Source: Octopus vulgaris
Lineage: Eukaryota
NCBI GenBank assembly: GCA_951406725.2
Contig: OX597814.1
Location: 206,336,001-206,400,000, forward strand
Reading direction: 5' to 3'
DNA: 64,000 nucleotides
Positions within the stretch are counted from its first letter, which is position 1. Each line of letters starts with the position of its first letter. This document shows, piece after piece, positions 1 through 49,242 of the stretch. Made by a program: the position numbers and the translations under genes. Below the pieces are notes generated by a model. The model was not told the origin of the DNA and did no database searches. It worked only from the letters and a program-made list of their open reading frames with translations.

Positions 1-128
1 TGGTCGTTCGTCCTAACGATATCTTTCCTTCTGAAACGAAGAAAATAAATACCGCCTTAACTAAAAATCCCTCAACCACGTTTCCGTCTTTATATATGTT
101 TCTCTCTCTTCTGTTTTTGTAAATTTAA

Positions 129-1985
129 CCCATTAAGTCCCAGAGTACTGAGATGTTTGAATATTACTTTTAAATTTTCAAAGATGATTGAAAAAAAGGG
201 TAAGATAATAAAAATCAATTATAAAAACTGCTTTACTTCAAGTAGAAATGGAAATACACGGGTTTTCCATAAAGAGGATCCTGGCTCAATGTGATACTTT
301 CATAAATTCAAAATCCCTCATATGTTATCTGTTAATATATTCTATTGGTATTAAAGTTTGTATGTAAAATGGCTAAAGTTTTTGAAAGAATACAGCGAAA
401 TAATAGAGCGAAATACAAAAAATACGATACAATTAAAGATTGAAATACAAATCATACAAAAAAACAAGATTGAAGGAAATCAATTTATAAGACTATGCCT
501 TGAGGAAATGGGCCAAAACAGTCTTGACTCAGGGTGACGTTGCACTTTTCACAATAATTTAGTGGTTTCCTGTTGTACGACTTATTTTGACAACGTCGTT
601 GCTGATCTCGTTTAGCTATTATATGGCCTTTCAAATCAAATTGAACGTCAGCATTTGGTGTGGATAGTGTGATCGTCTATGTTTATTGTTCAGATTGCTT
701 AGCAGTGGAGAGCTTTAGATATGAAACGCATAGATATCTCCTGAAATCGAGTAAATATTTATGTTTCCTCCTTTCCCTCGTTGATCAGTTTGTAAATAGT
801 CCACGCATTGACAACAGTCCTATCAATGACTCTAGCCAACAATGGTCTGCACCACTTTATGCGTCTAATTGAGGTTGCACATTTTGACACCAACCAGTCT
901 GGCTTGTCAACTTCACCCGTGCAATTGTTATATGAGCCGCAAACATGGGGTCGGGTCACATTGCCCTTGCTTTTACTTCCTTTACTCTAGCGTTGTACAT
1001 TGCAAATGGGTTCGACTGAATCAGGATTAGTCCCAATTCTCAAACATTTAGTGTCAAGCCAACTAACTACAAGGATTTCATTATTGATTTCAAATCTATA
1101 ATCATATCAACATCTTCGCTCCTTTCTCATCAATGCTCTTTCCTTTAGAGGACATCTCTTGAGACAATTATCTCTCGTAGCAGTTGTTTCAAATGCCATT
1201 TGCCCGAGATGCACTAACGGATCATACTTTGTGAATATATTATCAAAATATACGGATTGTGACCAAGGATCATCTACCACTCCAAGAAACTTTCCTTCCA
1301 AGTGGAAGATCGTCTTCGGGTCCTTTTTGAATTCTCTTGCCACAATACAGATCAAAGTTGTAACAAAATCCTGAAACACCGCACAATGCCCAAAACTTTT
1401 AACGAAATCTTATGGGTTTCCCTTTTATAAATTGTTTGAGTGAATTATGCCCCAATAGCATTTGACCATCATTACATCGACTGACAGACTCTTTTCACAA
1501 ATTTCGAATCTATTGAAGGAATTCTGAACCATATTAAAGAGAAAACGAACTGCATAATATTTATCATCTTTATTCTCCTCCCAATTTTCGTTATTCTGAA
1601 GTGAATGGTGCTATAAAGATGCCGGAGTGGATTTCTTGTAATAGCAGTTTTGATTAATGGCACACCCAGATCTTCGTCACTTGACCAGAGTGGTTTCTTG
1701 TGAGGGGTAACCTAAGATAACTGGAATATATTAGAACTCCAAGAACTGTTTCCATTCATCTACAGAAAAGGTTTCGGTTTTAATCCTTCCGGGCCGCAGA
1801 ATATCGAACGTTTTCTTTCGCTGTGTAGTCATATATTTCTGGTGTTTGCATTTCCTCAAACATTTCAACAGGGCTGCGTTATTGCAGAGCATCTTGCATT
1901 TTTCTAAAACATTCTAACTAATTCTTAATTCTTGGCTGAGCTTTTTGTGTATTCAAGTATCTCTTTCGATGTAATCGAGGTGCTC
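129..1985 (-). mobile_element. Degenerate piggyBac DNA transposon (3' part)
   Basis: TTAA|CCC terminus at 125-131. Transposase fragments VYFDNIFT, YNNCTGEVDK, VVNAWTIYK and a C-terminal Cys-rich remnant (QRRCQ..YCEKCNVTL..DCF). Confidence 0.88.
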
Positions 1986-1999
1986 CTCCCGCAAATATT

Positions 2000-2935
2000 T
2001 CAGGCCTAATGTAGAAAGGATTATTATTCGTATGAATGCAAATTCGTAATCTGGATATAGAAGCTGGAAGTTACAATGCATTTGTCCATAATTAGCTTCT
2101 TTGTTTTTGATTTTCAAAGAGATATTCCCATCAGCAGGGCAACCGACCTGTACGACGGTACATTCTTTTTCTTGCCTGTCCCAGACAACAATATCTGACT
2201 CGTTATGCTTACCTTAGCATGAATGCACACCTGTTTCTGTCACAACAACCTCTCTTCACCTGGTACAGCATCACTTCTTCCAATGCTCCCTCCCCGTCTG
2301 AAAGAATATTTGTCTTGCAAATTACTTGGTGACCCTGCAAATGTTGGTGCCAGGTAAAGAGCCACCAATCCACACTGTAAAGTGGTTGGTATTTTCGAAG
2401 GGCATCCAGCTGTAAACATCATGCCAAAACTGGCCTACTCTATGCTGGGGCCACGTAAAAGACACTCTTCCGGCCTGTTGGTTAGGAAAAGCATCCAGCC
2501 CTAAAATCCATGCTAAAATATACACTGAAGCCTTGTGCTGGCTTTTGCCTAGCCAGCTCCTGTCAAACCGTCCAAACCATGCCAGCATGAAAAGCAGACG
2601 TGAAATGATGAGGATTATGATGAAGATAACAAGGATGATGATGACGGCGACGACGATGATAATGATGATGACGATGATTCATCTATATTTTCAGCTGCCC
2701 CTTAGAACGCCAATGGCTTCAATGTCTCTTTTATTGATTAGGTATTTAGTAGCAATCTCCCGTTCTTGGACTGTAAATGCATATCTTTTGAAGCCTAGTG
2801 TGATGTATCGGTCATGAGTCCAAAAGGGGTTTCGTTTCATCTCTGTGTTACTATCATCTTCAGATCTACTAGAAACGTACTCATACATAGTCATTTCTTA
2901 GCGTTCCATTTTGAATCTGTTTGAAACGAAATTCA
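2000..2935 (-). mobile_element. RLE non-LTR retrotransposon relic interrupted by short interspersed repeat fragments (~2240-2680); mirror at ~39065-39980
   Basis: YAFTVQEREIATKYL and DIVVWDRQEKECTVV-like pieces resemble 27487-28119. Insert ends in CCAGCATGAAAAGCAGACGTGAA(ATG)n. Confidence 0.65.
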
Positions 2936-3242
2936 TACTCATTTCATATATCTTTACCATCTACATTAAAACCTCCGTATTTTCAGTTCAAATATAACTT
3001 GATTCAGTTATGATGCTAATTTTAATACCTTGAACTAGGTAGTATCAAAAACAATAGAAAATCTCCTGCAACCTTTGAATAGAAAATATTGACCTTGAAA
3101 CGGGGATATGTTTAACCATAGAAGAGGTACTCGGCAACAGAAAAATGCATTGATTTCTCAGATACATTGACCACAACACTTATGATTATTTCGTAACATT
3201 GCATATGTCTATGAAATAAAGAAACGGAGTTGAATCTTCATT

Positions 3243-3276
3243 ACTTAATATGCTTTGTTTTTTCATATTTTTACAG
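3243..3276 (+). promoter_or_regulatory. Putative 3' splice acceptor of a 5'-UTR intron
   Basis: Branch-like CTTAAT, pyrimidine tract and TTTTTACAG ending 10 nt before the ATG. Retained in the paralog (~38724-38760, minus strand). Confidence 0.6.
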
Positions 3277-3286
3277 ATAACCAAAT

Positions 3287-5509
3287 ATGGCTGCCGTGCA
3301 GACGACAATAACAGCAACCAGTTCTCTTATTCTTTCAATCATTCTTATTATCACACTGACATTACTAAACATCGATGCGAAGGAACTCGGCAATGATTGT
3401 GAAGTTAAAATCCCTCCCAATATCAGTGAGATTTTATTTCATTTAGTAAAATTAGAAAAAGCGGTTTTCAATTTTGAAGTCCATTTATCAAACAAGACAC
3501 TTGATGAACTTCTTAATCCTGTGCCATTGGATTATTTTGCAAATGCGAGGAGTTTTACGTGGATTCCAGATAAATCAGGCGCTTTAACTATATATAAAAC
3601 TTTCCCCTATGATTTTTCAATGCGCACTTTTAATATGTTGGACGTCTACGTTGCTAAACAAAGGATTGATATCAATATCACTTGTGGAAAACAAAATATT
3701 CAGAGACACGATTTAATATATTTGATATTCGACGCATTGAAAAGAATCATATTTATGGACAAATTACAAATGGCAGAATCTGGATACATGTGTTTTTATA
3801 TAAATTTATCTCAAGACATGAAGACGAATAGCCCTGGCACATTTGAAGCCAACAAAAGAATTGGTAATAATCGAGAAATGTTGAAGAACTATTGCTGTAA
3901 ACTCTATAAAAATGGAAGCTATTTTTATCACTCCAAATCTATTTGTTCAGGAAAGATTATTGAGAATGCTATGTTTCAGAATTTAGCACGTATCGCCGGT
4001 GCCGTTTTGTGGGCTATATTACCATTACTCATTAGTTTCGTATCAAAAGCGAAAGTACCTTTACATTCCCGTCAACTCAATCTGCCACTGTTTGCTCACG
4101 ATGAATTCATATTTACAATTAAAAACACATTACCATACAAATCCGAGTGGATCAATGTAAAACATAATATTTACACATTCTCACATTTTCTGTCTTGGGT
4201 ATTTTGTTTCCACAATTCCTCTTTCTTTGCCTCAAGACTAAGAAGATTCCTTTGTATTCTATTTTCACTTTCAGTACTCTTTCTGGATCTTTTGATGCAT
4301 TACTTCTTTTTATATGAAACAATAGAAATTATTTACCAAGATGGTTTACCGTTGGGCTATCGCGCCCTAATATTAGGAATAACAGAAAGTTATGACAGTA
4401 CAGATGGCTTCTTGGGGGGTCCGTTTTTGTGCTTCATCGGCTATATATTTTTTAGCTTTATTCTCTTCGTTCTTCCCAGTCGTTTAAGTGAGACTGTCGC
4501 GTATAATGCACTACATCAAAGATCCACTTTCACGTTTCTGATACAAAATATCACATTATTAGAGAAGTATGGCAGTTTAAATGTTTCTACACAACAGGAT
4601 TATGATCTACTCTATGCAATAATGAAAGCTAATGTTTCTACAGCTTTAAACACAAATTTCTGGCATTTAATAATTTATACTTGGTTCAAACGTATAAAGA
4701 AAATTTGGTTATATTACTGCAGGAGAAATATTTTCTGGCAATTCATTGCGCTTTGGCTCTTTATTTCCATTACAATTTTATCTGCTGTATTTTCTGTCTG
4801 TGAATTATTTCTATGCCTCATTTATTATGGAATCCCATTTGTTTATCTGATTTTAACTTTACCATTAAGTTATTTCAGAGTTTATATTTACCCCCTGTAT
4901 TTGAATCCTAACTATATTTTCAAGATTATTGCTTTCATTTTAACATTCATATCGTTTCCATGTTTTCTAGTGTGGGGAATTTATTCAATCTATATATTTG
5001 CAGTAAGTTTTGGTATCCTTTGCGAGTATGTATTTTCAATAGCTGTTGCAGTACTTGCTAAGCCTGATACTGTTGGTGATATATGGTTTGTTTCCATGTT
5101 TCTTCTCTATGGTATTGCAATCATAAAAGCTATCCAGAAACAGTATGACTTCATTCTGCTTGGATCCATAAAGCTTGCCAAAATTCTTCGTCCGAATTTA
5201 GTTCAGTCAAAATATGGGGAAGAATTCATGGATGCCAATTTGTTCAAGACAATTATTTACCATCATTTTCCATTGAGATTCGAGATTGGTAAATCCATTG
5301 TAAAACTGTTTCTAATCGTAACCTTTTTCTTTGCTTGCAACAATATAATAAGTCGAGAAGACTTGAACTTATCAGCATTCACAAAGATTACTTTGATATT
5401 GATGACGTCTATGATACCTAAATTATTGTCTATAGTAAATGCAGATCGTAGGTTAACAATAACCATGTTAGATAAAATGATCCAAACAATAAACTTATTT
5501 GAAGAATGA
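3287..5509 (+). CDS. Orphan multi-pass membrane protein (740 aa), receptor/channel-like, single coding exon
   Basis: Uninterrupted 2.2-kb high-complexity ORF. Hydrophobic N-terminal signal-like segment, ~200-aa ectodomain with 6 Cys and sequons NIS/NKT/NIT/NLS/NGS, then ~8-10 hydrophobic segments. No TE motifs. Paralog at 38713-36750. Confidence 0.88.
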   Translation: MAAVQTTITATSSLILSIILIITLTLLNIDAKELGNDCEVKIPPNISEILFHLVKLEKAVFNFEVHLSNKTLDELLNPVPLDYFANARSFTWIPDKSGALTIYKTFPYDFSMRTFNMLDVYVAKQRIDINITCGKQNIQRHDLIYLIFDALKRIIFMDKLQMAESGYMCFYINLSQDMKTNSPGTFEANKRIGNNREMLKNYCCKLYKNGSYFYHSKSICSGKIIENAMFQNLARIAGAVLWAILPLLISFVSKAKVPLHSRQLNLPLFAHDEFIFTIKNTLPYKSEWINVKHNIYTFSHFLSWVFCFHNSSFFASRLRRFLCILFSLSVLFLDLLMHYFFLYETIEIIYQDGLPLGYRALILGITESYDSTDGFLGGPFLCFIGYIFFSFILFVLPSRLSETVAYNALHQRSTFTFLIQNITLLEKYGSLNVSTQQDYDLLYAIMKANVSTALNTNFWHLIIYTWFKRIKKIWLYYCRRNIFWQFIALWLFISITILSAVFSVCELFLCLIYYGIPFVYLILTLPLSYFRVYIYPLYLNPNYIFKIIAFILTFISFPCFLVWGIYSIYIFAVSFGILCEYVFSIAVAVLAKPDTVGDIWFVSMFLLYGIAIIKAIQKQYDFILLGSIKLAKILRPNLVQSKYGEEFMDANLFKTIIYHHFPLRFEIGKSIVKLFLIVTFFFACNNIISREDLNLSAFTKITLILMTSMIPKLLSIVNADRRLTITMLDKMIQTINLFEE

Positions 5510-5954: not shown

Positions 5955-5969
5955 TATAATAATAATAAT
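5607..5969. repeat. (TAA/TGA)n microsatellite; other half at ~8606-8902
   Basis: Direct reading. Much longer than the paralogous empty site at ~36622-36652. Confidence 0.95.
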
Positions 5970-8605
5970 AGGGAAGGAGAAAGTAACCGTTAAAGACCCC
6001 CCTCCCATGGAAGAAGTTCAAAACTTTTGGGAAAGGATTTGGAGTGACGAGAAGACGTACAACATAAATGCAGACTGGATTATACAAACTGAAGGATCCT
6101 ACCAAAATTTACAACAACAAGCATGGGAAGGCATCACAATAGCAGACCTAAGAAAGGCACTCACGAAGGCCCATAATTGGAAATCCCCGGTAAAGATAGG
6201 GTGCCGAATTTCTGGCTCTCATCGCTCCCATGCGCACACGGTTAGCTAATTCAGCTGCTCGATGGAATTATGAGAGATCCAAAGAAAACACCTGAATGGT
6301 TAGCAAGTGGTATTACCTACCTACTCCCAAAGAATAACGAAACCAAACTTCCAAAAAACTGTCGGCCTATAACCTGTCTATCCACCACGTATAAAATCCT
6401 AACATCTATCCTGGCGGAGAAAACATATGCATTCATGAAGAAAAACGATATTTTCCCCATTGAACAAAAAGGGTGCTGCCGAGGCTCATACGGATGCAAA
6501 GATCAACTGCTAATTAATCGTATGATCCTTGAGAACTGTCACAACAAGCGCAGAAATCTCAGCTCCGCATGGATTGACTATAAAAAGGCCTTCGATAGTA
6601 TACCGCATTCATGGATCTTGAAATCGCTGGACATCTTCAAAATTTCCCCTGTGATTTCAAACTTCCTGAAGCACAATATGTCGTTGTGGAATACGAATCT
6701 CCAATTATACCACTCTAATGGAGTACTTGCTTCAGAGAATATAAACATCAACTGTGGAATTTTTCAAGGTGACTCACTTTCACCTCTAATATTCTGCATA
6801 GCCCTAATACCCCTTACAAGTGAATTAAACAGAACAGGGTATGGGTATAAAATTGCCAATAAAAAAATAAGCCATCTATTTTATATGGATGACTTAAAAC
6901 TCTATGGTAAAGACGTTAATGAACTTGAAGGCATATTGCGCACTGTGAAAACATTCAGCGATGACATCGGGATGGAGTTTGGACTTGAGAAGTGTGCCAA
7001 GGCCACTTTCCAGAAAGGGAAAGTGAAGACCACAAGTTCAGTCGTGTTAGATGTTGACACAGTCATAAGAGAGCTTGAGCAAGAACAAACCTACAGATAT
7101 TTAGGGATAAATGAAGGCTCTATTATTCAGCATGCAAGCATGAAAGAGAAGATCAGGAAGGAATGTTATAGGAGAGTTCCAGCAGTCCTGAAATCAAACT
7201 AAATGCACGTAACAAGGTGTTAGCTATAAATTCCTTAGCAGTTTCAGTTGTTACTTATAGCTACAATGTGTTGAACTGGAATATGAGTGAAGTAAAGAAT
7301 ATAGATAGGAAAATACGCAAGCTGCTGAGTTGTAATAGGATGCACCACCCAAAGGCATATGTAGATCGCCTTTACCTCCCCAGAGCCCAAGGATGTCGAG
7401 GCCTGATCCAATTTGAACTAGCTTACAAAACAACCACAATTGGACTGGCCAAATATCTTGAAATAACGAATGACTGGATGCTAAAGCTCGTGGAAAATCA
7501 CGAGAGACGAAAGAAGCTTCATTCTATCATAAAGGAAAGCAAAACATTTGCTGTTGATCTCGTGCAAGATACCCAAACTGAACAACCCGAGGGAAGTACG
7601 GCAACTATTGTTTCAAAGAAGGTGAAAATAATGACAACGAAAAAAGCGCACGAGCAATTGGCTGATAGGTGGGAGGAGAAACCTCTGCACGGCAAATATG
7701 TGGTCCGTAGCAAACAAGCTGATGTTGACCAGAAGCAAACCCATCAGTGGCTACGGAGATCAGGGCTAAAAGCAGAGAGCGAAGGTTTCATCCTGGCTGC
7801 TCAAGATCAAAGCCTATTAACCCGGAACTACCAGGCCAATGTGATGAAAAATGGAGCAGACCCAAAATGCCGATTCTGCAACGACATGATTGAAACAGTG
7901 GACCACCTAATCTCTGGATGTAAAGTCTTAGCACTAGTGGAGTATAAATTAAGACGTGACAGAGTTGGCCAATATCTACACTGGCTAATAAGTCGGCATT
8001 ACAATATCAAAACTGCCGACAAGTGGTATAATCACCACCCTGAGGCTGTAACTGAAGGAGAAAATGTAACCATTCTGTGGGACATTCCAGTACATACAGA
8101 CCGAACCATCAAGGCCAATAAACCAGATATTGTTTTGAAAGACCAAAACAATAAAGTTTGCTTATTGATCGACATGAGCATCCCCTGTGATCATAATATC
8201 TCGGCGAAAGAATTTGACAAGCTCAGAAAATATAAAGACCTGTTCATTGAAATTGAGAAAATGTGGCATCTCAAGGCGGTTACATTACCAGTGATCGTAG
8301 GAGCACTAGGAATGATCAAGAAGGGAACCGAAAATTATATGAGAATGATCCCTGGCTTACCATCCCTGCAAGAAGTGCAAAAGATTGTCTTAACTGGTAC
8401 ATCACACGTATTGAGAAGAGCATTGTCGATGTGAGAACTATTACTACCCATGTATTTTAATTTAACTTTATTCTATAAAAGAAAAATGAACGAACTAGTG
8501 AGTTTAGTTTAATGGCCTACCAATGTATACTATGAGTTTCTTTGCCCTAGGATTCGGGAAGACACTCGGCAAGAAATAGAAGCAAATAGAAGAAAAACCC
8601 ATAAA
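5970..8605 (+). mobile_element. 5'-truncated R4/Dong-like RLE non-LTR retrotransposon inserted in (TAA)n
   Basis: RT (QGDSLSP, YMDD), CCHC knuckle CRFC..HLISGC, RLE KPDIV..IDMSIP..KY. Frameshifted. (TAA)n on both sides. Near-identical to 52090-54735. Confidence 0.93.
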
Positions 8606-8638
8606 CAATAATAATAATAATAATGATAATAATAATAA

Positions 8639-8669
<31 letters not shown>

Positions 8670-11461: not shown

Positions 11462-11924
11462 CTTTCTAGTGGAGACATAAACCCTCAAATTTGTGGGGCG
11501 TTCACTAGTCGATTATATCGACTCCAGTATTTCACTGGTATTTCATTTATCGACTTACATGCACACACACGCACGCACATATATACATCTAAATGTACAA
11601 TCTGAATAACAATTCTTCATTGCTTAATATTTTCTTTATGTCTGGTTTAATCCAGGTTTTTGTTTATTTTGTTTCGAATCGAATAAAGAATTTATTTTGA
11701 TATCGACTATAACGTTGTTTGTCTTTCTTCTCGGAATCCATGTCTCTGGGCGCTTTGTCATACTTCTCTCAAAGCATTTCCGTATTTGTGTGTGTAAATG
11801 AGGGTGTGGTTGTGGGAGGGTGTGTGTATATATGTGTATTACTCAAACAGTTGAGACTCATTGTTGGGTCTGTCAAAAGAATTGAAAAATGAACAACCCT
11901 CAAAATCAAGAATTTAAAGGAATT

Positions 11925-12180
11925 GCAAATGAATGCAAACATGAATTTCAAAACAAAACGTCACATCTTCTGCATTACTTGCCTACAATTCGACGAGAAT
12001 TACATTGGAGGAACAGAAACAAATTTCACCAACCGTGTGAACGTCCTCAAATAGTAAATTAAAAATTCATCTTTTAGAAATTGTCCACGTAATAAACATG
12101 TAAACATTTGTGCAAATGGAAAATAGAAAATATTCCCTTTTTACAAAATATAAGACGAAAATGTCCAGCTATGAAAGGCA
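11925..12180 (+). mobile_element. Penelope-like GIY-YIG endonuclease relic (mirror ~35455-35715, minus)
   Basis: Hand translation NMNFKTKRHIFCITCLQFDENYIGGTETNFTNRVNVLK**IK..CPRNKHVNICANGK*KIFPFYK. Confidence 0.75.
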
Positions 12181-12756
12181 CTGCATAAGTCTTCTCAATC
12201 TGAAGCTAAACCCGAAATCGTCAACCCCATAAACAAAAACAACTTTCTCTACACGCATTACCCCAGAACATGTGTTTTGTAGAAGTTCAACAACGAAAGC
12301 GGTTACATACAAAATACAGACAAAGGCTTTGTGACATTCTATTCTCTAAATAACTTTTAAACAGTTAATAAATTTCAAAAGTAATGAAAAAAACACTAAA
12401 AGAGAATGAGTCAAACCCAGACACAATAAAATTTTAGAAGAACTTTCATTAAACATTGGGACAATATCAAGTATATTTAGAAAGACTCTTACACACACAC
12501 ACACACATACACAGACACTGACACACAAGCAAACAAACACACACTCATCAAGAAGACGGTGCTGCTGTATGGCCGCAGTGAAATGATTTAAACAAGTAAA
12601 AGAATAAAAGATTATATACATATCCTCGGTGCCACAGCCGTTTTTGCCGTCTCCATCCTGAATCCAGCGCATCTCTACATCTAGTAAATACTGTATTTGG
12701 AAAATATACTTTCAGAACTCCTGTATCCGCCGCCAATGTGAATATCTCGCTCTCAG

Positions 12757-12813: not shown

Positions 12814-14619
12814 GATAACGAGGATTTAAAACAGAACCGGTCCGTAACATCATCCGAATATAAGAAGCTTTTCAAGTCGATGGAGACGCCACCACCTAAC
12901 CCCAGACTGAAGAAATTTGAGGACGACTTATGGGGCATTGTAAGGAGCATTAAATTCAGGAAGTCGCCCCGTAGGAATAAACACCTCAGATACCTAGGGA
13001 AAATTACTAAGGATATCAACAGCTCAGACGGAATCCTGGTCCAATCTGACAAAACAAGGAACACTTACAAGATACCTATAAACCAGTACTTAGAATTACT
13101 CAGGAAAGAGATCCAGAAGAACTATAGAACTACAAATAAGAATACAATGAGAAGAGTTAACTTGGAGATTAAGAAAATTATGGTAAATTATGGGCTTCAA
13201 ATGAGAACACAACCGCTTAACCCAAGACAACCTAGATTCATCGTTAAGGACCACAAACCAAATTTCCACACCAATCCAGCATTAAGGCTCATATGCCCTT
13301 CTAGTTCCGACATCGGTTCCATCAGTAAGTACATTTTAGACAAATACATTCCTAGTTTAGTTAATAAGCTTAAGCTTAACCTTTGGGCGAACTCCTCGCA
13401 AGTCGTAAAGTGGTTCTCTTCTATCCCTAATAAAAACAGAACTAAGTTCATTCAGTTCGATATTGCTAATTTCTACCCCTCGATTAACCCTAGTGTACTC
13501 AATAAGGCCCTGTGGCATGCACATAATAAGGCAGGCCTCACAAGAGAAGAAATTGATATAATTCTAGTCGCCAGAAAATCCTTTATACAGTTTGAAGACA
13601 AGTTATGGGTTCGTAAGGATACTCCCAACGAGTTCGATGTACCTATGGGAAGTTCAGATAGCGCCCAGATTGCCGATTTGGTCGGAATCTATATTCTCTA
13701 TGAATTATCCGACCAATTCCCGGACATCGGAGGCGGCCTATATCGTGACGATTGTCTGTTTTACCTACAGAACACCCCGAATAGAATGATACAGAAAACT
13801 AAAAGTAGATTAGCTAGGTTCTTTAAAAGGATGGGCATGAGCATAGTTTTTGATAACGAACTTACCAAGGCTAATTTCTTAGATGTCACACTAAACCTGC
13901 ATAGCGATTCTTACTGCCCCTACCACAAACCTTCCACTAACTTAAAGTATGTCAGTGTTTTCTCTAACCACGCAAAAACTATAACAGACAATTTAGTTAA
14001 AAAAAGATTAACAAATTTATCTGCCAACGTCGACATTTTTAGGCAGAAAGCGGAATTTTATAATGCCGCCCTGTCAAAAGCCGGTTATTGGGAGAAGGTA
14101 GCATATATAGACCCGGCCCTTCCGAAACCAGCATTCTATCATCACGATAAGTCAAGTTACAATAACATAAATAATATAAGTAGTGATGGTAGCCTGAGGA
14201 ATGTCGATACAAGTACAACTAGCATAAATATAGATAACATAAATAATTTGCGGTCCAGGGGAGGCCATCGTAGGCCAAAACCCATTATTCAACCCAGAGA
14301 TACCCACCTTAATGTTAGAGTTGACTCTCCGAGCCAGTACAAGAACAGGAAAAACTATATTTGGTTTGTAATTCCCTTTGGTAAACAAATAAGATCTAAC
14401 CTACCGTTGCAGTTTCGCCAAGCAATTGCCAGAAATTTTCCCAGAAATTCGAGATATTACTCCACTGTAAATTCACACAAAGTTAGGATAGCCTTCTCCA
14501 ATACTAAAAATCTTTCACAGATAATTTCCTCCCATAACAATAAGCTGCTAAATAAGACCCTCTCACCCATGAGCGGAGACTGCTGTCTAATTCCAACATA
14601 ACGTCTAATTCCAACATAA

Positions 14620-18995: not shown

Positions 18996-19049
<54 letters not shown>

Positions 19050-19054
<5 letters not shown>

Positions 19055-19845
19055 TTTATACATAAATATAAGAGAGTAACCACTATGTGGTCGAATCTAG
19101 CACTAAAAATAGATCCGCTAGGTTTCAGCCACAAAGAATTGTTTCCGATGAAAGTTAGCACGACTACTAGCGCAAACGAACAAGGCAAATAAAAATAACA
19201 AAAATGCAGATTAGTTCAGGACAATTGTTTCGCTATTAATAAATTATGTAATTTTACTCACATAACATATCTGTAGCTCTTCAGCCGAAACGGTCCAGAA
19301 TACAATTTACTCAACCGCACGCTAGATTTTACCATAACGATAAACACACGTGCGGTTCGGTCGATTGCATTCGCTGTTATAATTCAAGTGCCCCTTCCAC
19401 AGCCTGCCAAAATTCACGGAAACAGATAATACATCCAAAATTATATGTAGTATAATTACAATCAACTAATAAGGGTGAGAAAATTGGATACTAATTTAAT
19501 AGTACATCCATTTAACACCAAGTGGCTTAGTGCATAAAAAACCTGGATTTCGATAAATTTTATACATAAATATAAGAGAGTAACCACTATGTGGTATTTT
19601 TGTTATTTTTATTTGCCTTGTTCGTTTGCGCTAGTAGTCGTGCTAACTTTCATCGGAAACAATTCTTTGTGGCTGAAACCTAGCGGATCTATTTTTAGTG
19701 CTAGAGTCGACCACATAGTGATTACTCTCTTATATTTATGTAAAAATTTATCGAAATCCAGGTTTTTTAAGCACTAAGCCACTTGGTGTTAAATGGATGT
19801 ACTATTAAATTAGTATCCAATTTTCTCACCCTTATTAGTTGATTA
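19050..19845 (-). mobile_element. Non-autonomous Penelope-derived element: partial tandem plus inverted pLTR-like segment, in (TA)n
   Basis: ~19052-19090 repeated at ~19555-19595 (period ~500 nt). ~19596-19845 is an inverted copy of the unit. Contains a hammerhead. Confidence 0.75.
19215..19289 (-). ncRNA. Type I hammerhead ribozyme
   Basis: Minus strand TTCGG-CTGAAGA-GCTA...TAGC-GAAA-CAATTG-TC-CTGAA. Confidence 0.82.
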
Positions 19846-19946
19846 TATATATATATATATACATGTAATATGTACACACACATATATACACATATATACA
19901 TACATACATATATACACCCATACACATATACACAAACACGTACATA

Positions 19947-25211: not shown

Positions 25212-25655
25212 TTAATAAGGGTGAGAGAATTAGATACTAATTTAATAGTATATCTATTCAACACCAGGTGGCCCAGTGCCCCGAGAAACCTGGATTATTA
25301 TAATATTTTATAATATATTATAATATTTTATACAAAAATAAATATAAGAGAGTGGTCACTATATGGCTCACTCTAGCACTAGTAAATCCAAAAGGTTTCA
25401 ACCACAAAAATACATATTTCCCATGAAAGTCAGTACGATTGTTAGCTCACACGAACAGGGCAAATAAAAAATAACAAAAATACAGATTATTTTGGGACAA
25501 TTGTTTCCTGTTCGTGTGAGCTAACAATCGTACTGACTTTCATGGGAAACATGTATTTTTGTGGTTGAAACCTTTTGGATTTACTAGTGCTACAGTGAGC
25601 CATATAGTGACCACTCTCTTATATTTATTTTTGTATAAAATATTATAATATATCT
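25205..25655. mobile_element. Related Penelope-derived element with ~145-bp inverted arms
   Basis: Starts AATAAGGGTGAGAGAATT like 19467. ~25314-25459 is inverted at ~25507-25652. Hammerhead 3' half (GAAACAATTGTC, minus) at the junction. Confidence 0.7.
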
Positions 25656-25789: not shown

Positions 25790-26584
25790 TAGAATGGGAA
25801 TTTCTGGACACCTGTAAAAAATTGGAAAAGTGAAGAAAACAGATAGGTTTGTTCTACATCAACTGAACGAGATTTGAAAAAAAAAAAAAAAAAAAACCAG
25901 AAGCCTCTAAATGTGCTTATTATTGCTTTCCCGACTAGAAAAATACCATTTTTGGATCAAATCCTTACTTGTGATGACAAATGGAAACTCATTGACAACA
26001 GCAGAACAGGACAGTGATTAAATGCAGGAGAGTCACCTAAACGCACCATTGCACCCTAAAAAGTTGGTTGTCATTGTATGGTCGTCCGCGAAGGGAGTTA
26101 TTCATTATTCATATTTGCAACAAGGGAAAACGGTAACAACAACATCGTATTGCTAGGAAATTGATTGTATGCGTGAGAATTTGAAAAAGAAGCAACCCAG
26201 AATAGTGAAGAGAGATGGCCCAATTTTGCTCCACGACATTGCACGTGCTCACTCTCCACAAGCTACGGTCCAAATGTTGCAAATCCGGAATTATGAGATT
26301 TTGCAGCATTCTCTGATATCTCTCCAACTAATCATCACTTATTTAAGCATATTGCCTATTTCATAAACAATAAAACATTCGTAAAGAGAGAAGAGGTGAT
26401 TGAAGCATTCGGACAGTTTAACAGCAAATGATGGATTCCCTTTTAAAGATGGAAAATATGACATAGACAAAACTTTGGTAAATGAACGGGGATCATACTT
26501 TGATTAAATGAATCAGTTCTCCAACATTTCTGAAACATTTTATTGTTAGCTTTCAAATACGACAATTCATGTAAAACAACCTAA
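25790..26584 (+). mobile_element. Degenerate mariner transposon (3' part)
   Basis: FLDQILTCDDKW, LHPKK..VW..GVIHY, GPILLHDIARAH. Right TIR-like end ..AAAACAACCTAA|TA at 26584-26586. Confidence 0.88.
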
Positions 26585-26619
26585 TATTAAGCTAGGAACT
26601 TTTCCATTTGAACGGCAGA

Positions 26620-28440
26620 TCGAGAAATTAATTTTTTGTAACTAAACACTTTCAAACTTAAGATTAAACTCAAAGAGTGACTGTATTATCACTGATAGAA
26701 TACAGTGTCTCAAAGGCATCTTCCAAGGGAACAGCCTTCTGTGATCTTTATATTTCCTGTAAACCCCATGTCATTCATGTTAAAGAAGTCTGTAGGATAT
26801 CTCACTGGTTCACAGGGAAACAAAAGTATCAGAATTACACACTGTTTCTTTGTGACTGACCTAAAACGTTATGCAAAGAATATGCATGAGATGAAAAAGA
26901 GCCTTGAGCTAGTTACGACATCCTCAAAGGATGTAGGGTTAGATTTTGGTCAGGATAAATGTTGTTATATAGTTGTGAAAAGGAGGAATGCTATAAACTA
27001 GACTAGTAGCATCTCCGTCAATAATTTGAATGTTTCCCCTGTATCTGGTATCTAGGGGTGGATGAAAATATATCTTACAATGGCACCTGTAACAAAACAC
27101 GTGTCACTGAAGAATATTACAGCCGAATTAAGAAAATTTGGACCTCACATCTATCTGCATTCAATAAAACACAATGTGTTTGCAGTGTCAGTACCCGTAC
27201 CAATATTTGAGATGCTTGATTGGACGTTTGATGAGATCCTAGCAATTTGTGTGAAAACCCGAAAAATATGAACAACAAAACATAATTTCCACATAAACAG
27301 TGACGTAGGTAGCCTCTACCTGAAACGAAAACAAGTGGCAGAGGTTTAACATCGATCCAAAATGCCTTTGGATGTCACATCATATCCTTTCGGCAACATC
27401 TTTTAACCGTCAAGTGTCGAAATGCATCCCTTGACCAAGTTTGCATACATGAGGCTGATAACATCATAAGACTTGAGCAGCATTCCTTGTCTGAGAACCT
27501 AAAGTACATACTCACACGACTCTACCGCAGCGTCTCATCAGATGAAAGGATGAGCCTATGTAAGCAGAAGACCATGCATGGATATGATAGTAGAAAGCTT
27601 TGTGATGATAGTAGCATCGATCATCAAAGCAGTTTATCATGGATCAATAGCCGGATTACTACCTCGCACTTTGAAGGATATGCATTTGTTATCGAGGAAC
27701 AGGAAATATCAACCAAGTACCTGGTGAACAAAAGGGATGGAGATACAGAAAAAGCATTCAAATGTGGCAAACGATGCAGACTTTGTGGAGTTCACACTGA
27801 AGATATCACCCACATCATAAGCAGTTGTCCGAAAATGTCATCACGGTATTATCTACCGATGAGACATGATGTTGTAACTAGGACACTCTATAATGAAATC
27901 CGTGGTAAGCATAATCCCAAGAAGAAAGAAAAAAGAATCCACAATATGGTAGATGCCATAGCCACTCATAATAAAAAGGAATACCGGTGGAATGTCCCAG
28001 TGAAGACCTCAGTAAAATATAGGAACAACAGACCTGATATAATGATTTGGGATAGAGAAGAGAAACTGTGCACAGTTGTGGAAATTAGCTGCCCAGCGGA
28101 TGTTAACATAAAGCGGTAGATCAGTGAAAGAGAGAACACCTCTGCTGAACTATTGAGAAATCTGCAGTTACTCTATCCAGATTACAAGTTCAGGTTCATA
28201 CCTGTAATTATTGGGGCACAGGGATATGTAACACACTGCCTAAATACCAATTTTGAGAAATTAGGCTTCTCAAAACCAGAAAGGAGAAAGCTAATTCGAA
28301 GATTACAGATCCAATCCATCACTGGAACTGTAAAAATCTGGAAAACTTTCCAGAAGTTTATCATTTAAATATATATGAGTATGTCTAGATATGTAACTAT
28401 ATGCATGAGAATACATAAAAACATACAAAAATACAGATCT
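26620..28440 (+). mobile_element. Second RLE (R4-like) non-LTR family, degenerate 3' half, followed by (TACA)n
   Basis: FVTDLK (degenerate YxDD), CRLC..HIISSC, RPDIMIWD..VEISCP. Other copies at ~18305-18960, ~42005-42631 and ~44811-46125. Confidence 0.85.
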
Positions 28441-29100
28441 TCACACACAACATTCATACATACGTACATACATAAATAAATACATACATACATGCACACA
28501 TACATACCTACATAAATAAATACATACATGCATGCATACATACATACATACATACATACATACATACATACATACATACATACATACATGCATACATACA
28601 TACATACATACATTCATACAGACAGACAGACAGACAGACTGGCTTGAAGTGACGCGTCGCGTATTTAGTATGGAAGACTATTTATGGAAGATACGATGAA
28701 TACTATCTCCATCTTTGAAGCCCTGTTAAATAACTGGTTAATCTCCAGAAGAATTAACTGAAGGAGCCTTTTATTAAAGATTGTATTGATTTTCGACTGA
28801 AACTTGAATTTAGCATGCAGAGATTTACTACAAACAACATGGCTGGACACAACATCAACAACAACACAACCAAGGAACAGAACAAAAACAACAGCTCAAC
28901 AGATAAACAGATTCTTTCTAGCTGTAGTTAGAGAAGAATCCCTAACCACAAAACTCATCTTTTTTCTTGGATTTATGAATTGAGGACAGATTTATTAATT
29001 GTTATAGAAGAGCTAAACAAAACCCCGTCGTTGGATGTTTGGTCAGATTGGAACCATACATGGACGATCCGCATCCACAACTAAATTATTTTACTGCGAG

Positions 29101-29400
29101 ACAATTACGCCAACAAGCAACATTTGTGGGACGTAGGAAGAAAGTTTGTAGCCGAACGGAACAAAACCTTGAAATATCGGGAACTGAGATTGAACTGTCT
29201 CTTCCAACTTATGGCGTTTGAGATGTTTGAAGGAAGTGAACCGCTAACAACGAAGTTCTTGTCATCGTTGGCAGCTCGCTTAACCGAGGCGTCGGGTGAT
29301 GCCTGTGATGGCGTTTGGCTTTTCCGACGCCTTAGCCTCGCCTTCGATCCTGATAATGCAGTGAAGTGTTGACTCGCTTCAGTAGGTTCCGTTGGGCTTT
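29101..29400 (+). mobile_element. CRE-like non-LTR retrotransposon 3' fragment
   Basis: KYREL..FQLMAFEMF..FLSSLAARLTEASGD..WLFRRLSLA..NA resembles CRE-clade C-termini. Absent from the paralogous 46890 site. Confidence 0.65.
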
Positions 29401-31040
29401 GTGGCGTTTGACCAACAGAAGAAATTGGAGCTGCATTGATGTTTTCTTTCTCTTTCTTTTTCTTCCCTTTATAGTTCTTCTTTTCTTTGTCTTTCTTTTG
29501 TAAAAAAATTAAATATTATAGAATAATCAGGACTACGACGTTGGAACCCCTATGTGGTTTCGCAGTTAATAACATTACAACAAATACTATACAGCCTACC
29601 AGCTAAACTACGTCACAAGCTAAAATAACTAACCATTGACCCTCTACTATGACCATGGTAAATAGCAGGCACAACCGCAACGATTATTATAGAAGTTGTA
29701 ATAGTAGTGATAGTAGTCAGGGGAGGAGTTATGAACATCACAGAAACTTTTTCACGAGAAGACAGAGACTTCTTCTGGATGAAAAGGTGTTAAACACCAA
29801 AAATAACAATAACAAACCAGGAAGGAAAGGAAACAGCATTTAAAGGGTTTCCAACCCCAGAGAGAAAAAGAAAACCCGATTGATTCATGGTTTATCCTCA
29901 GACAGACACCTCGTCTCACAGTAAACTCCTCCAAAGAAAACAAAATACTAAAAACAACAGCCACATATCTCTCAAATCCTTCCTTCAATTCTTAGAAAGG
30001 AAATACATTGGTGGACAATGCATATGAATAGAGAGGGTGGTGGTCAAGGTTAGAATGTCTTGTATCATAGATCTACTCCCGCAACACTGACATGTTGCTA
30101 AACCAAGAAAATAATAATTCTCTTACCTTTTGCGAGTCTCTCGATTTCAATGATATACGTACAACAAATACTGGGAAACAAAAAGTAAGCCAATTCCTTA
30201 AAAGCATCAATAATATTTCTCAACCAACAAAACAACCTTCCTCTGAGCTTTCCTGATCAAAACAGAACCCAAGTGGTGGTAGACAGACTGTATTATCAGA
30301 ACTATGCCTGAATAGGTGTAAACTATTTCCTGTGCATGTGAAATATATAAATATATGCGTAAAATTGTAAATCTATATCTGTAAAGAATACATTAACATC
30401 ATTCCTGCGGATAACCCATTTATATATATATATATATATATATAGTTATTTATTTATTTATATCCAAATTCACCTCAGCAACTTTAGTCCCACCAAGAAA
30501 AGTTAATTAAGTAGATTTACTACTTTTAGTAAAGTGGGTTTTCCAAAAATTTATATTTATCACAAGAAAACTAAACAAACATGCCTTTAACGACATTTCT
30601 CTTGACAGTCATATCCAATTTGATCATCAGATGCCAAAATGAAAGACGAAGAAGAAGCATGAAATTCTATGAGAGAAACGAGCTCAGAGTGAAATTTGGT
30701 AAAAAATGGAGAAATGTGTAAAAAAGAGACCAGCTGATTGGTCTGTACCTCCATTAGCTGTTTCAAGAATTCTGAAAAGAATTGAAAAATCCTGGAAATT
30801 ACTTAAGCCGTGATCGCTCGGGAATACCACAAGTAACAACACCTCAAACTGGTCATTTTATCTACCACTGTACAAGAGCAAATCCTTTCTCTTCTGCAAG
30901 TGAGAGACAAGCCCAGTTACCAGAAAATAATAACAAAAAACAACACCAAGATTATCAACAATTGAGGACCGTTTAGTAAAAAGTTTAAAGCTCAGAACCA
31001 ACCAGCAAAAACAAAAAGAAACATTTTAAACAGATAATAA

Positions 31041-32449: not shown

Positions 32450-34104
32450 TTATATAGACATAGAGAAAGGGTGAAAGATTGAGGGGCAATGAGAGAAAGG
32501 ATGAGAATGACGGTTGATGGGAGACATATACATGGCTATGGTACATTTAACACACAGCTCCTTGTTAATAGGGAAACTGTAAGGAATCTCTATGGGGAAA
32601 CTGAACCCATGTCTCTCCATAACTGAAACAGGAAAAGTAAGGCAACAGCATTTATAGGGGTTCCAACCCCAGAGAGAAAAAGAAAACCAGATTGATTCAT
32701 GCTTTATCCTCAGACAGACACCTCGTCTCACTGTAAACTCCTCCAAAGAAAACAAAATACTAAAAATAACAGCCAAATATCTCTCAAATCATTCCTTCAA
32801 TTCTTAGAAAGGAAATACCTTGGTGGATAATGCATGTGAATAGAGAGGGTGGTGGTCAAGGTTAGAATGTCTTGTATCATAGATCTACTCCCGCAACACT
32901 GACATGTTGCTAAACCAAGAAAATAATAATTCTCTTACCTTTTGCGAGTCTCTCGATTTCAATGATATACGTACAACAAATACTGGGAAACAAAAAGTAA
33001 GCTAATTTCTTTAAAGCATCAATAATATTTCTCAACCAACAAAACAACCTTCCTCTGTGCTTTCCTGATCAAAACAGAACCCAAGTGGTGGTAGACAGAC
33101 TGTATTGTCAGAACTATGCTTGAACCGGAGTAAACTATTTCCTGTGCATGTGAAATATACAATCAAAATCTATAAAGCTGAAATGCGAAAAATTTGTTTG
33201 CCTCATTTTGGGATGGGAACGGTTTAAGGGCCGGTAGATGAAGTCAGATTGGCTCCATAATTTACAGAGACATATAAAATGAGGTGATGAAGCAACTGCA
33301 CTAGGTTAGAAACCCTTATCTCAAAAGCTGTGGTTACTAGGGCAACAAAACCCAAACTTTGACAAGTGTTTGTTGTTTCTCTCTTTTGGATATCAGTGTT
33401 TTTCTTCTACCAGTGCAATCAACTTGGTATCAGCATTAAAGCTCTCTCTCTGTCAAAATTGGGAACACATAACCGTCCAGGATTTTCCATATGTATATTA
33501 TACTCTCTCTCTCTCTCCCTTTGCCATTCAAGAAAATAGAGACACAGAGCTTTCAGACGTACCCAGGAATTAAGGCTTTCAACCAAATTTATTCTACTGA
33601 TGAACGTTGTCAGTATTTATGCTGTTGCAAATCTTCTCCAATTCCGTGACTCATACTATTTCTTTGTTTGATTTTTAAGTGAGTTATAATCTTTGGTGGA
33701 TTCTTTTCTGGTGGAGGAGTTTTTAAACATGAAGCAATTTATTAAAAGACATCTCTAAAAATAGACTTTCTGTGTTTCTGATCCTCGCCCCACCAGCTGA
33801 TAGCATACGTTTTATAGTTGTATGGTTTCGCTGATAAAATGTTGCGGACCTTCATTTTGGATACGCGATGAAGTACTAAGTGCAGAGGGGTCATCCTTAT
33901 TGTTATGCAGCATGGTAACAGAGTGTGGAGCCTGTTTGCTGTTGAAGAAATGCTTGTCTAAGAAAATGTCTCCGCCATGATATTTGTGCAGTGTTTACAG
34001 CTTCAGAAATAAGATTACATTCATCATTTTTTTAGAAATGATTTCATCAACTATTCTTTTGCGTTCAACAAATGTTAATAGTTGGTGGAATTGTTTGGCC
34101 GTGA

Positions 34105-36749: not shown

Positions 36750-38713
36750 TCATTCTTCAAATAAGTTTATTGTCTGGATCATTTTATCTAAAATGGTTAT
36801 TGTTAACCTACGATCTGCATTTATCATAGACAATAATTTAGGTATCATAGACGTCATCAATATCAAAGTAATCTTTGTGGATGCTGATAAGTGCAACTCT
36901 TCTAGACTTATTATATTGTTGCAAGCAAAGAAAAAGGTTACGATTAGAAACAGTTTTACAATGGATTTACCAATCTCATTTCTCAATGGAAAACGCTGGT
37001 TAACAATTCTCTTAAACAAAGTGGTGTTTATGAATTCTTCCCCATATTTTGACTGAACTAAATTTGGACGAAGAATTTTGGTGAGCTTTATGGATTCAAG
37101 CAGAATGAAGTCATATAAACTCTGAAATAACTTAATGGTAAAGTTAAAATCAGATAAACAATTGGGATTCCATAATAAACGAGGCACAGAAATAATTCAC
37201 AGACAGAAAATACAGCAAATAAAATTGTAATGGAAACAAAGAGCCAAAGTGTAATGAATCACCAGAAAATATTTCTCCTGTAGTAATATAACCAAATTTT
37301 CTTTATACGGTTAATCCAAGTATAAATTATTGAATACCAGAAATTTGGGTTTAAAGCAGTAGAAACATTAGCTTCCATTACTGCATAGAGTAGATCATAA
37401 TCCTGTTGTGTAGAAACATCTAAATTGCCATACTTCTGTAATAATCTAATATTTTGAATGAGAAACGTGAAAGTGGATCTTTGATGTAACGTATTATAAG
37501 CGATAGTCTCACTTAAACGACTGGGAAGAACGAAGAGGATAAAGTTGAAAGATACGTAACAGATTAACCATACAAAGGGAGCACCAAAAAAGCCATCAGT
37601 ATTCTCATAACTTTCTGGGATTCCTAATATCAAGGCGCGATGTCCCAATGGTATACCATCTTGGAAAAGTATTGCTATTGTTTCATATAAAAAGAAGTAA
37701 TGCATCAAAAGATCCAGGAAAATTACTGAAAGAGAAAATAGAATACAAAGGAATCTTCTTAGTCTTGAGGCTAAGAGAGTGGAATGGTGAAAGCAAAACA
37801 ACCAAGACAGAAAATGAGAGAATGTGTAAATATTATGTTTTCCATTGATCCACTCGGATTCGTGTGGCAATGTGTTTTTAATTGTAAATAAGAATTCATC
37901 GTGAGCAAACAGTGGCAGATTGAGTTGACGGGAATGTGAAGGTAATTTAGCTTTTGATACAAAACTAATAATTAATGGGGAAAATACCCACAAAACCCCT
38001 CCGAAAATATCTAAATAATTTTAAAAGTTATCATTTTGAATGATTTTTCCTGAACAAATGGATTTGGGGCGATAAAGATTACTTTCATTTTTATAGAGTT
38101 TACAGCAATAGTTCTTTATAATTTCTCTATTTATGCCAATTCTTCTGTAAGTTTCAAATGAGAGAGGGCTGTTCTTCTTCATGTCTTGAGACAAATTTAT
38201 ATAAAAACACATGTATCCAGATTCTCCCATTTGCAATTTATCGATAAATAAAATTCTTTTCAATTCCTTGAAAATCAAATATATTAAATCGTGTCTCTGA
38301 ATATTTTGTTTTCCACAAGTGATATTGATATCAATCCCTTGTTTAGCAACGTAGACGTCCAACATATTAAAAGTGTGCATTGAAAAATCATAGGAGAAAG
38401 TTCTATATAGAGTTAAAGCGCCTGATTTATCTGGAATCCACGTAAAACTCCTCGCATTTGCAAAATAATCCAATGCCACAGGATTAAGAAGTTCATCAAG
38501 TGTCTTGTTTGATAAATGGACTTCAAAATTGAAAACCTCTTTTTCTAATTTCACTAAACGAGATAAAATCTCACCGATATTGGGAGGGATTTTAACTTCA
38601 CAATCATTGCCGAGTTCCTTCGCATCGATGTTTAGTGATATCAGTGTGATAATAAGAATGATTGAAAGAATAAGAGAACTGGTTGCTGTTGTTGTCGTCT
38701 GCACGGCAGCCAT
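36750..38713 (-). pseudogene. Pseudogenised paralog of the 740-aa membrane protein
   Basis: ORF pieces 38021-38713, 37259-37993 and 36750-37187 align collinearly with 3287-5509. In-frame stops at 38021-38023 and 37259-37261, plus a 259-bp frameshifting deletion (equivalent to 4888-5146) with TAT microhomology at 37113-37115. Confidence 0.9.

Positions 38714-49240: not shown

Positions 49241-49242
<2 letters not shown>

What the first reader, a model, noticed from the sequence alone, without database searches (positions are those of the whole stretch)
3725..4470. Hypervariable patches and abrupt divergence steps: mosaic paralogs
The upstream flank, codons 1-146 and the last ~75 codons differ by only ~3-4%. 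From codon 147 divergence jumps (22 of 82 residues differ in 149-230). It peaks at the ectodomain/TM1 junction (ENAMFQNLARIAGAVLWAILPL vs QNDNF*NYLDIFGGVLWVFSPL) and in the loop/TM around GFLGGPFLCFIGY vs GFFGAPFVWLICY. Coding sequence more diverged than adjacent dead TEs implies gene conversion or recombination among family members, or selection on specificity-determining segments.
Basis: partly seen in the sequence, partly recalled or inferred. Interest (0 to 1): 0.7.

Follow-up and report, generated by a model that had tools for sequence, protein, structure and literature searches.

The report
Patchwork octopus membrane-protein gene duplicates
Two inverted copies of an uncharacterised membrane-protein gene in a likely octopus genome, one intact and one broken, differ by about 3% in some stretches and up to 35% in others, silent sites included, which most likely reflects repeated copying of DNA segments among family members rather than selection on the variable patches.

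Summary
Copy A (3287-5509, +, intact, 740 aa) and inverted copy B (38713-36750, -, two stops, 259-bp deletion) differ by 2.7-3.6% over the 5' flank, codons 1-146 and codons 666-740. Divergence jumps at base 3727 (0 of 1000 permutations) to 13-35%. The steps lie in silent sites (dS 0.01 to 0.49-0.60) and dN/dS in the diverged segments is 0.19-0.57, so they mark segments of different ancestry, not positive selection. Over residues 294-410, B differs from a third Octopus paralog at 5 of 117 sites, against 144 of 534 elsewhere. Octopus database proteins repeat both mosaics, which argues against an assembly chimera. The two peaks are not family-wide hypervariable, and the second straddles a near-invariant GGP motif. 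Verdict: ectopic gene conversion or recombination in a multigene family, a known process already proposed for other cephalopod clusters. The more interesting part is the family: expanded in Octopus, with one named bivalve relative, no Pfam or clear PDB match, and a confident model (pLDDT 86) with an ectodomain and about nine predicted membrane helices. A receptor or sensor role is likely but untested.

The parts
3287..5509 (+). Copy A: intact single-exon ORF, 740 aa. Signal peptide or anchor (about 4-27), Cys-containing alpha/beta ectodomain (about 36-228), about nine predicted membrane helices (229-717)
36750..38713 (-). Copy B: inverted pseudogene. Stops at codon 231 (38023-38021) and codon 485 (37261-37259); frameshifting 259-bp deletion at 37116/37115 (A 4885-5143 missing)
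91..3286 (.). 5' flank shared with B (41855-38714). It ends in a pyrimidine tract and AG acceptor at 3275-3276, so it is likely a 5' UTR intron; it holds retroelement remnants. 2.7% diverged over 451-3286, 6.7% over 91-450
451..3726 (+). Young homogenised tract (flank plus codons 1-146), about 2.8% diverged; dS 0.011 in the coding part; partner B about 41508-38274
3727..4066 (+). Old segment, codons 147-260 (C-terminal half of the ectodomain and first membrane helix): 19.6% nt, dS 0.49, dN/dS 0.35
3959..4036 (+). Peak 1, codons 225-250, ectodomain / first-helix junction: 34.6% nt, dS 0.68, dN/dS 0.57
37484..37834 (-). B codons 294-410 (A equivalent 4166-4516): tract shared with third paralog P0003 (5/117 aa differences against 144/534 outside; A vs B 25/117)
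4394..4471 (+). Peak 2, codons 370-395, around the near-invariant G377-G378-P379 motif at the start of the third predicted membrane helix: 25.6% nt, dS about 1.06 (noisy), dN/dS 0.19
4697..4882 (+). Low-divergence tract, codons 471-532: 5.4% nt, dS 0.05
5282..5506 (+). Low-divergence tract, codons 666-740: 3.6% nt, dS 0.02; flanked by 13% (codons 620-665) and 13% (first 61 bp of 3' flank)
11591..12741 (.). Colinear non-coding continuation of the duplicated unit (B 36051-34960), 10.8% diverged; contains a 270-bp tract 11843-12112 at 4/270 (1.5%) against 112/805 (13.9%) outside
5967..8640 (+). RT-encoding non-LTR retroelement inserted in an (AAT)n array just 3' of A and absent from B; it interrupts the duplicated unit

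Best explanation
Copies A and B are inverted paralogs of a membrane-protein gene whose divergence changes in sharp steps at silent and non-coding sites, most likely because segments were repeatedly overwritten by ectopic gene conversion or related non-allelic recombination, both between A and B and with other family members. Shown: segments of different synonymous age, a B-type tract nearly identical to a third paralog, and a pseudogenised B. Inferred sequence of events: (1) an old duplication leaves A-type and B-type bodies (codons 147-260, dS about 0.5, about as far apart as ordinary family paralogs); (2) exchange between the B lineage and the P0003 lineage, and more loosely other paralogs, homogenises residues about 294-410, which leaves A standing out at peak 2; (3) later non-reciprocal copying homogenises the 5' 3.3 kb, codons 471-532, codons 666-740 and a 270-bp downstream patch to 1.5-5%; (4) B then acquires stops and a deletion. 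A plain crossover between inverted copies would only invert the 31-kb spacer and would not homogenise, so conversion or segmental re-duplication is needed. Direction and order are not resolved; a young duplication whose middle was replaced from other paralogs is a variant of the same mechanism. The protein is likely a cell-surface receptor or sensor (about 0.5; channel or transporter about 0.3; judged from architecture only), so the shuffling would assemble new ectodomain / membrane-domain combinations.
For: Silent sites: dS 0.011 (1/94.5 sites, codons 1-146) against 0.28 (56/237, codons 147-532), Fisher p 2.6e-8; four-fold sites 1/48 against 14/79. Change point 0/1000 permutations. Triplet B|A,P0003: a run of 20 consecutive P0003-type sites among 144 informative sites, p = 5e-5 (floor of 20,000 permutations); B|A,P0004 the same p; A|B,P0003 p = 7e-4. 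P0001-P0003 is the closest of 66 pairs in 294-410 (3.4%, median 23.5%) while 28% apart outside. The clade B+P0001+P0003 is rejected for residues 1-146 (p-AU 0.0001) and 666-740 (0.017) but recovered for 295-420 (94/87) and 295-400 (62/38). Non-coding 270-bp tract, 0/300 permutations. Both mosaics recur in named Octopus proteins: B vs O. sinensis P0001 21/651; A vs O. vulgaris P0002 37/629; O. vulgaris P0021 ends at the same codon as B. The shared 5' module occurs on A-type bodies (P0114, P0116) and B-type bodies (P0001, P0021). 13 of 16 sequences had at least one triplet at p <= 0.001 out of 105 each, uncorrected.
Against: The clade A+B+P0001 is not recovered in the middle segments but is not rejected there either (p-AU 0.137 and 0.269). 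No close donor for either the A-type or the B-type 147-260 segment is among the sampled paralogs. All third-paralog evidence is at protein level, and regional rate differences inflate triplet tests. The P0021 micro-tract (four A-type sites, 149-157, in a B-type copy) is weak (p 0.077 and 0.043). Region borders other than 3727 were chosen after seeing the data, so those Fisher values are post hoc. The 270-bp non-coding tract could be a constrained element instead.
Confidence: 0.82

Rival explanations
1. Positive (diversifying) selection on specificity-determining patches of a young duplicate pair made the two peaks.
For: Both peaks lie at predicted extracellular ends of membrane helices (sidedness inferred). 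A and its closest relative P0002 differ at 11/65 residues in 346-410 against 26/564 elsewhere (scan-corrected p 0.037), so peak 2 keeps changing.
Against: Silent divergence rises 20- to 50-fold in the same segments and dN/dS is 0.19-0.57. The peaks are not family-wide variable, and peak 2 is among the most conserved windows in 71 distant homologs. The only nonsynonymous excess is in the quiet tracts (26 N: 4 S) and is not significantly above neutrality (p 0.20).
Confidence: 0.06
2. Regional differences in constraint or mutation rate on old paralogs (no transfer) explain quiet and noisy stretches.
For: Residues 294-410 are somewhat more conserved across the family (median pairwise 23.5% against 30%). 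The 270-bp non-coding tract has only two copies in the window and could be functional.
Against: Retroelement remnants in the 5' flank are 97% identical, which constraint cannot explain. Silent sites step at a boundary resolved to about 25 bp. The same N-terminal residues are 25-38% diverged from other paralogs. A 1.3-fold family effect cannot give the six-fold B-P0003 effect (5/117 against 144/534).
Confidence: 0.07
3. An assembly chimera joined near-identical 5' sequence (for example a second haplotype) to different paralog bodies.
For: The region is rich in repeats and microsatellites, and no reads were available.
Against: The shared tract is 2.7% diverged, with 8 flank indels between 451 and 3286, so it is not one collapsed sequence. 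O. sinensis P0001 matches B from end to end across the junction, O. vulgaris P0002 and P0114 match A across it, and neither is identical to the window proteins.
Confidence: 0.03

Closest known systems
Cephalopod protocadherin clusters (PMC9068888; passages read)
   Same: Octopus multigene arrays for which the authors suggest ongoing duplication plus homogenisation through gene conversion; cell-surface proteins.
   Different: No cadherin or any other Pfam domain here; multi-pass architecture; the evidence here is segment-level mosaicism, whereas the passage read argues from lineage-specific subfamilies.
Argonauta tyrosinase and reflectin clusters (PMC9635652; passages read)
   Same: Octopod tandem copies sharing more than 500-1000 nt blocks, read by the authors as gene conversion with partial recombination among gene bodies.
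   Different: Known protein families; here an orphan membrane family, inverted copies 31 kb apart, one of them a pseudogene.
Plasmodium falciparum DBLMSP / DBLMSP2 non-allelic gene conversion (PMC10919680; abstract and outline read)
   Same: Conversion between diverged paralogs makes domain-restricted, deeply diverged segments in surface proteins.
   Different: There the diversity is population-level and confined to one domain. Here no population data were available and the diverged segments are under purifying selection on average.
STRA6 retinol receptor (automatic UniRef label on P0005 and P0006)
   Same: Multi-pass membrane protein of similar size; about nine helices with the N-terminus outside (STRA6 topology recalled, from no call).
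   Different: No Pfam family matched any of 56 family proteins and the PDB sequence-profile search returned no STRA6 chain. The signal peptide plus 200-residue Cys-containing ectodomain is not a STRA6 feature as I recall it. The label is unsupported.

Membership tests
Ectopic gene-conversion mosaic (concerted evolution in a multigene family) | Paralogous copies in one genome | tested here: met
   A and B in the window; further Octopus family members (18 proteins; 10 shorter ones)
Ectopic gene-conversion mosaic (concerted evolution in a multigene family) | Abrupt divergence steps that include synonymous and non-coding sites | tested here: met
Ectopic gene-conversion mosaic (concerted evolution in a multigene family) | A tract in which one copy is closer to a third paralog than to its overall nearest relative | tested here: met
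   B-P0003 5/117 against A-B 25/117 in 294-410; protein level only
Ectopic gene-conversion mosaic (concerted evolution in a multigene family) | Statistically incongruent trees between segments | tested here: inconclusive
   B+P0001+P0003 rejected at both ends and recovered in the middle; A+B+P0001 not rejected in the middle
Ectopic gene-conversion mosaic (concerted evolution in a multigene family) | Non-reciprocal transfer with identified donor and direction at nucleotide level | not testable with these tools
   No tool returns eukaryotic genomic DNA for the other paralogs
Hypervariable region under diversifying selection | dN/dS above 1 in the patch | tested here: not met
   0.57 and 0.19 in the two peaks; 0.35 and 0.24 in the wider segments; pairwise, low power for single sites
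Hypervariable region under diversifying selection | Synonymous divergence uniform along the gene | tested here: not met
   dS 0.011 to 0.60
Hypervariable region under diversifying selection | Same positions variable across the whole family | tested here: not met
   72nd and 59th percentile among 13 Octopus sequences; peak 2 at the 95th percentile of deep conservation
Hypervariable region under diversifying selection | Variable residues cluster on an exposed ligand-facing surface | not testable with these tools
   The model's coordinates are not returned; only secondary structure and pLDDT
STRA6 / RBP receptor family | Match to the family's sequence profile or solved chains | tested here: not met
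   0 Pfam families for 1 protein at E <= 1 and 55 proteins at E <= 0.01; PDB profile search gave 3 sequences at E 0.48-0.96, none STRA6
STRA6 / RBP receptor family | Same fold | tested here: inconclusive
   (whole-chain model only)
Class C GPCR-like seven-helix bundle | Seven-helix fold match | tested here: inconclusive
   GABA-B chain Z 7.4, rmsd 4.7, 139 aligned; GPR156 Z 7.0, rmsd 5.3, 140 aligned; tied with unrelated helical bundles and within the stated noise range

The most novel reading that the evidence does not exclude
These genes belong to an undescribed molluscan family of cell-surface receptors with an unrecognised fold, expanded in Octopus. Segmental gene conversion works as a combinatorial diversifier, shuffling ectodomain halves and extracellular loop modules among copies, with pseudogenes such as B serving as sequence reservoirs, to build a chemosensory or immune recognition repertoire.
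Probability: 0.2. Interest if true: 0.75.

Novelty: new member of a known kind. Interest (0 to 1): 0.4.

Why it matters
The process is textbook, so the steps alone would not surprise a specialist. The case is useful for two reasons. It is a clean warning that pairwise 'hypervariable patches' in paralogs can be old segments left out of conversion rather than selected sites. It also exposes an uncharacterised family of probable surface receptors, expanded in Octopus and actively recombining, that has no Pfam entry or clear structural match and was not found in the literature searches run. If the family proves sensory or immune, it would add a new repertoire beside protocadherins and GPCRs, and the mapped breakpoints (3727; residues about 294-410) give ready-made natural chimeras for locating specificity.

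Tried and rejected
Pfam: 0 families for A and for 55 relatives, which is 55 of the 87 relatives in alignment A2. NCBIfam: 0 for 9 proteins. PDB sequence profile: nothing below E 0.48. Foldseek: 0 matches at E <= 0.001. VIA wide search: 0 of 48,161 chains at Z >= 8, and the rows cover mainly residues 440-725, so the ectodomain is barely tested and a new fold is not shown; no STRA6 chain is among the 50 rows listed. ESM Atlas: no usable hit for the whole protein or for 290-740; this shows neither absence nor novelty. Cluster-member look-up and a homodimer prediction could not be run, so cluster contents and oligomeric state stay unchecked. AU tests did not reject A+B+P0001 in the middle segments. 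The heterogeneity test of N:S across eight regions was not significant (p 0.18). Peak 1 can also be aligned with compensating indels; I used the gapless codon alignment, which may overstate differences there, but the step at 3727 lies outside it. Literature: six LOC identifiers, 0 papers; octopus + STRA6, 5 listings, none on this family by title; some searches gave 1, 0, 0 and 4 listings, none on it by title or abstract start; two searches were seen as listings only. Supplements were not read; PMC9068888 mentions a supplementary table of unnamed squid gene arrays that might bear on whether the family is already noted. Sequence trimmed before trees and triplets: non-homologous ends of six fragment models; P0017, P0018, P0023, P0026, P0027, P0118, P0119 and P0122 were left out as fragmentary or fused; P0020 was left out of the trees. 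Viral and metagenome contig collections stayed unchecked; they have no evident bearing on an animal gene.

Full report
What is there. The finding lies in a 740-codon single-exon ORF at 3287-5509 (+), copy A. A self-search finds one inverted paralog 31 kb away, copy B, 38713-36750 (-), and tblastn finds no third copy in the window. B has stops at codons 231 and 485 and lacks 259 bp (A 4885-5143), so it is a pseudogene. The 18 near-length relatives found are all octopod: Octopus sinensis, O. vulgaris, O. bimaculoides and Argonauta hians, 53-94% identical. The window is therefore very likely an Octopus genome; I did not determine the species. Many of the named proteins share a longest-contig length within each species (213, 226 and 200 Mb), which fits one cluster per genome but does not show adjacency.

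Observation. The best single change point is base 3727, support interval 3706-3731, reached by 0 of 1000 permutations. Two corrections apply. The duplicated unit continues downstream of the gene, past a retroelement inserted only in A, and there it is 10.8% diverged (116/1075), so only the 5' flank is quiet. And some quoted differences are decay of B: the alanine in GFFGAP replaces a glycine that is the commonest residue in 100% of 71 distant homologs.

Selection or ancestry. The deciding test is silent divergence. dS is 0.011 in codons 1-146, 0.49 in 147-260, 0.16 in 261-345, 0.60 in 346-400, 0.21 in 401-470, 0.05 in 471-532, 0.20 in 620-665 and 0.02 in 666-740. Four-fold sites agree (1/48 against 14/79). 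dN/dS in the diverged segments is 0.19-0.57. Selection on protein cannot raise silent divergence 20- to 50-fold, so the segments have different ages. The peaks are also not hypervariable in the family: 72nd and 59th percentile among 13 Octopus sequences, and peak 2 is at the 95th percentile of conservation in distant homologs. The most variable windows sampled were 540-565 and the C-terminus. Against a fully neutral reading, A and its closest relative P0002 differ at 11/65 residues in 346-410 against 26/564 elsewhere (scan-corrected p 0.037), so that patch changes recurrently, by exchange or by selection. In the three young tracts there are 26 nonsynonymous to 4 synonymous changes; this differs from the old segments (p 0.011) but not from neutrality (p 0.20). 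It is a weak lead that selection, if any, acts in the quiet tracts.

Third paralogs. B is the counterpart of intact O. sinensis P0001 (21/651 differences) and A of O. vulgaris P0002 (37/629). Over residues 294-410, B differs from the otherwise distant P0003 at 5/117 sites (0/51 in 295-345), against 144/534 outside, while A and B differ at 25/117. In the triplet test, B shows 20 consecutive P0003-type sites among 144 informative ones (p 5e-5, the floor). At peak 1 the same paralog leans the other way (A-P0003 8/37, B-P0003 12/36; triplet p 7e-4). Trees put A+B+P0001 together at 100/99 for both ends and reject B+P0001+P0003 there (p-AU 0.0001, 0.017), yet recover B+P0001+P0003 in the middle (94/87; 62/38). 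The converse test is negative: A+B+P0001 is not rejected in the middle (0.137, 0.269). The shared 5' module appears on A-type bodies (P0114, P0116) and B-type bodies (P0001, P0021) in two species. P0021 stops at the same codon as B and shares its A80 and G126, yet carries four A-type residues at 149-157, a possible recent micro-tract (p 0.04-0.08). 13 of 16 sequences gave at least one triplet at p <= 0.001 of 105 each; this is uncorrected and inflated by rate variation, but it suggests family-wide shuffling. In non-coding DNA downstream, a 270-bp stretch at 1.5% sits inside 13.9% (0 of 300 permutations). These database matches argue against an assembly chimera.

How it likely works. Shown: stepwise silent divergence, third-paralog sharing and pseudogenisation of B. 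Inferred: layered non-allelic gene conversion (or segmental re-duplication followed by recombination), with the 5' 3.3 kb, codons 471-532 and 666-740 homogenised last. Crossing over between inverted copies alone would invert the spacer without homogenising. The oldest segments (dS 0.5-0.6) look older than the 3' flank (14%), so they may have been imported from paralogs not sampled; donor and direction cannot be fixed without paralog DNA.

The protein. phmmer over 1.84 billion representatives gives 95 hits at E <= 0.001, most about 21-27% identical and 700-900 residues long. The only distant relative that carried a name is from the bivalve Sinanodonta woodiana. An 88-sequence alignment gave a model with pLDDT 86 and pTM 0.82: N-terminal hydrophobic helix, an alpha/beta ectodomain with six cysteines conserved in 89-99% of distant homologs, a disordered loop at 260-285, and long helices. 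Hydropathy, the model's helices and the positive-inside rule suggest about nine membrane passes with the N-terminus outside; that count is my inference. No family or fold could be assigned (see Tried and rejected); the UniRef label STRA6 has no support in these calls. From architecture, lineage expansion, pseudogenes and shuffling I judge a surface receptor or sensor most likely (about 0.5); no functional evidence was obtained.

Comparison and novelty. Gene conversion has been proposed for octopus protocadherins (PMC9068888, passages) and argonaut tyrosinases and reflectins (PMC9635652, passages), and shown for Plasmodium DBLMSP paralogs (PMC10919680, abstract). This case meets the mosaic criteria that could be tested and fails those for a selected hypervariable region. 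I found no paper on the family; the library lacks most subscription papers and I read no supplements. Verdict: a real feature, an ordinary mechanism, an unusual and apparently undescribed host family. New member of a known kind, interest 0.4.

Noticed in passing
window 3287-5509 and relatives P0020-P0121: The host family itself is an orphan: 95 relatives, one named bivalve member, conserved motifs (ectodomain cysteines, R317/R320, GGP at 377-379, FW at 458-459, several prolines), a confident model, and no Pfam, NCBIfam or clear PDB match.
   Followed up: partly
window 3287-3724, 4697-4882, 5282-5506: Young tracts hold 26 nonsynonymous to 4 synonymous differences. Seven N-terminal changes are private to intact copy A among the near copies, and four B-lineage changes cluster at residues 690-698 in a predicted outer loop; a weak hint of selection outside the reported peaks.
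   Followed up: partly
window 3572-3691 (residues about 96-135): A and B share a derived ectodomain segment that differs sharply from all other paralogs, while residues 1-95 stay close to P0004 and P0010: a further likely breakpoint near residue 95 that the A/B comparison cannot show.
   Followed up: no
window 5967-8640 (+), 50868-54767 (+), 58701-62508 (-): Three copies of an RT-encoding non-LTR element (95% and 76-78% alike), at least the first two next to (AAT)n arrays. The C-terminal motifs resemble restriction-like-endonuclease elements of the R4/Dong kind (label recalled, not tested).
   Followed up: partly
window 47649-47696, 48293-48337, 49957-50083 (-); also 32936-32983 and 30124-30171: Short stretches matching upstream exons of O. 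vulgaris gene models P0114, P0119 and P0120, each followed by GT; possibly B's 5' exons. One is present in three copies inside a repeated block, so it may be repeat-derived.
   Followed up: partly
window 26005-30789 vs 43859-48270: Colinear direct repeat of about 4.5 kb made of pieces at 84-99% identity, apparently degenerate retroelements; it is also patchy in identity.
   Followed up: no
window 12880-14601 (+): 573-aa intact ORF with RT-like motifs but no Pfam hit at E <= 0.001; it resembles a Penelope-like element (recalled). A degenerate relative lies near 48390-49242.
   Followed up: no
window 25313-25653 and 19049-19861: A 340-bp self-complementary hairpin (90.5%) and a cluster of 95-98% inverted and direct repeats of about 150 bp.
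   Followed up: no
P0011, P0016, P0017: Family members with tandem repeats of about 24 residues expanded in the loop after the first membrane helix (A residues about 258-262), the region the model leaves disordered.
   Followed up: no
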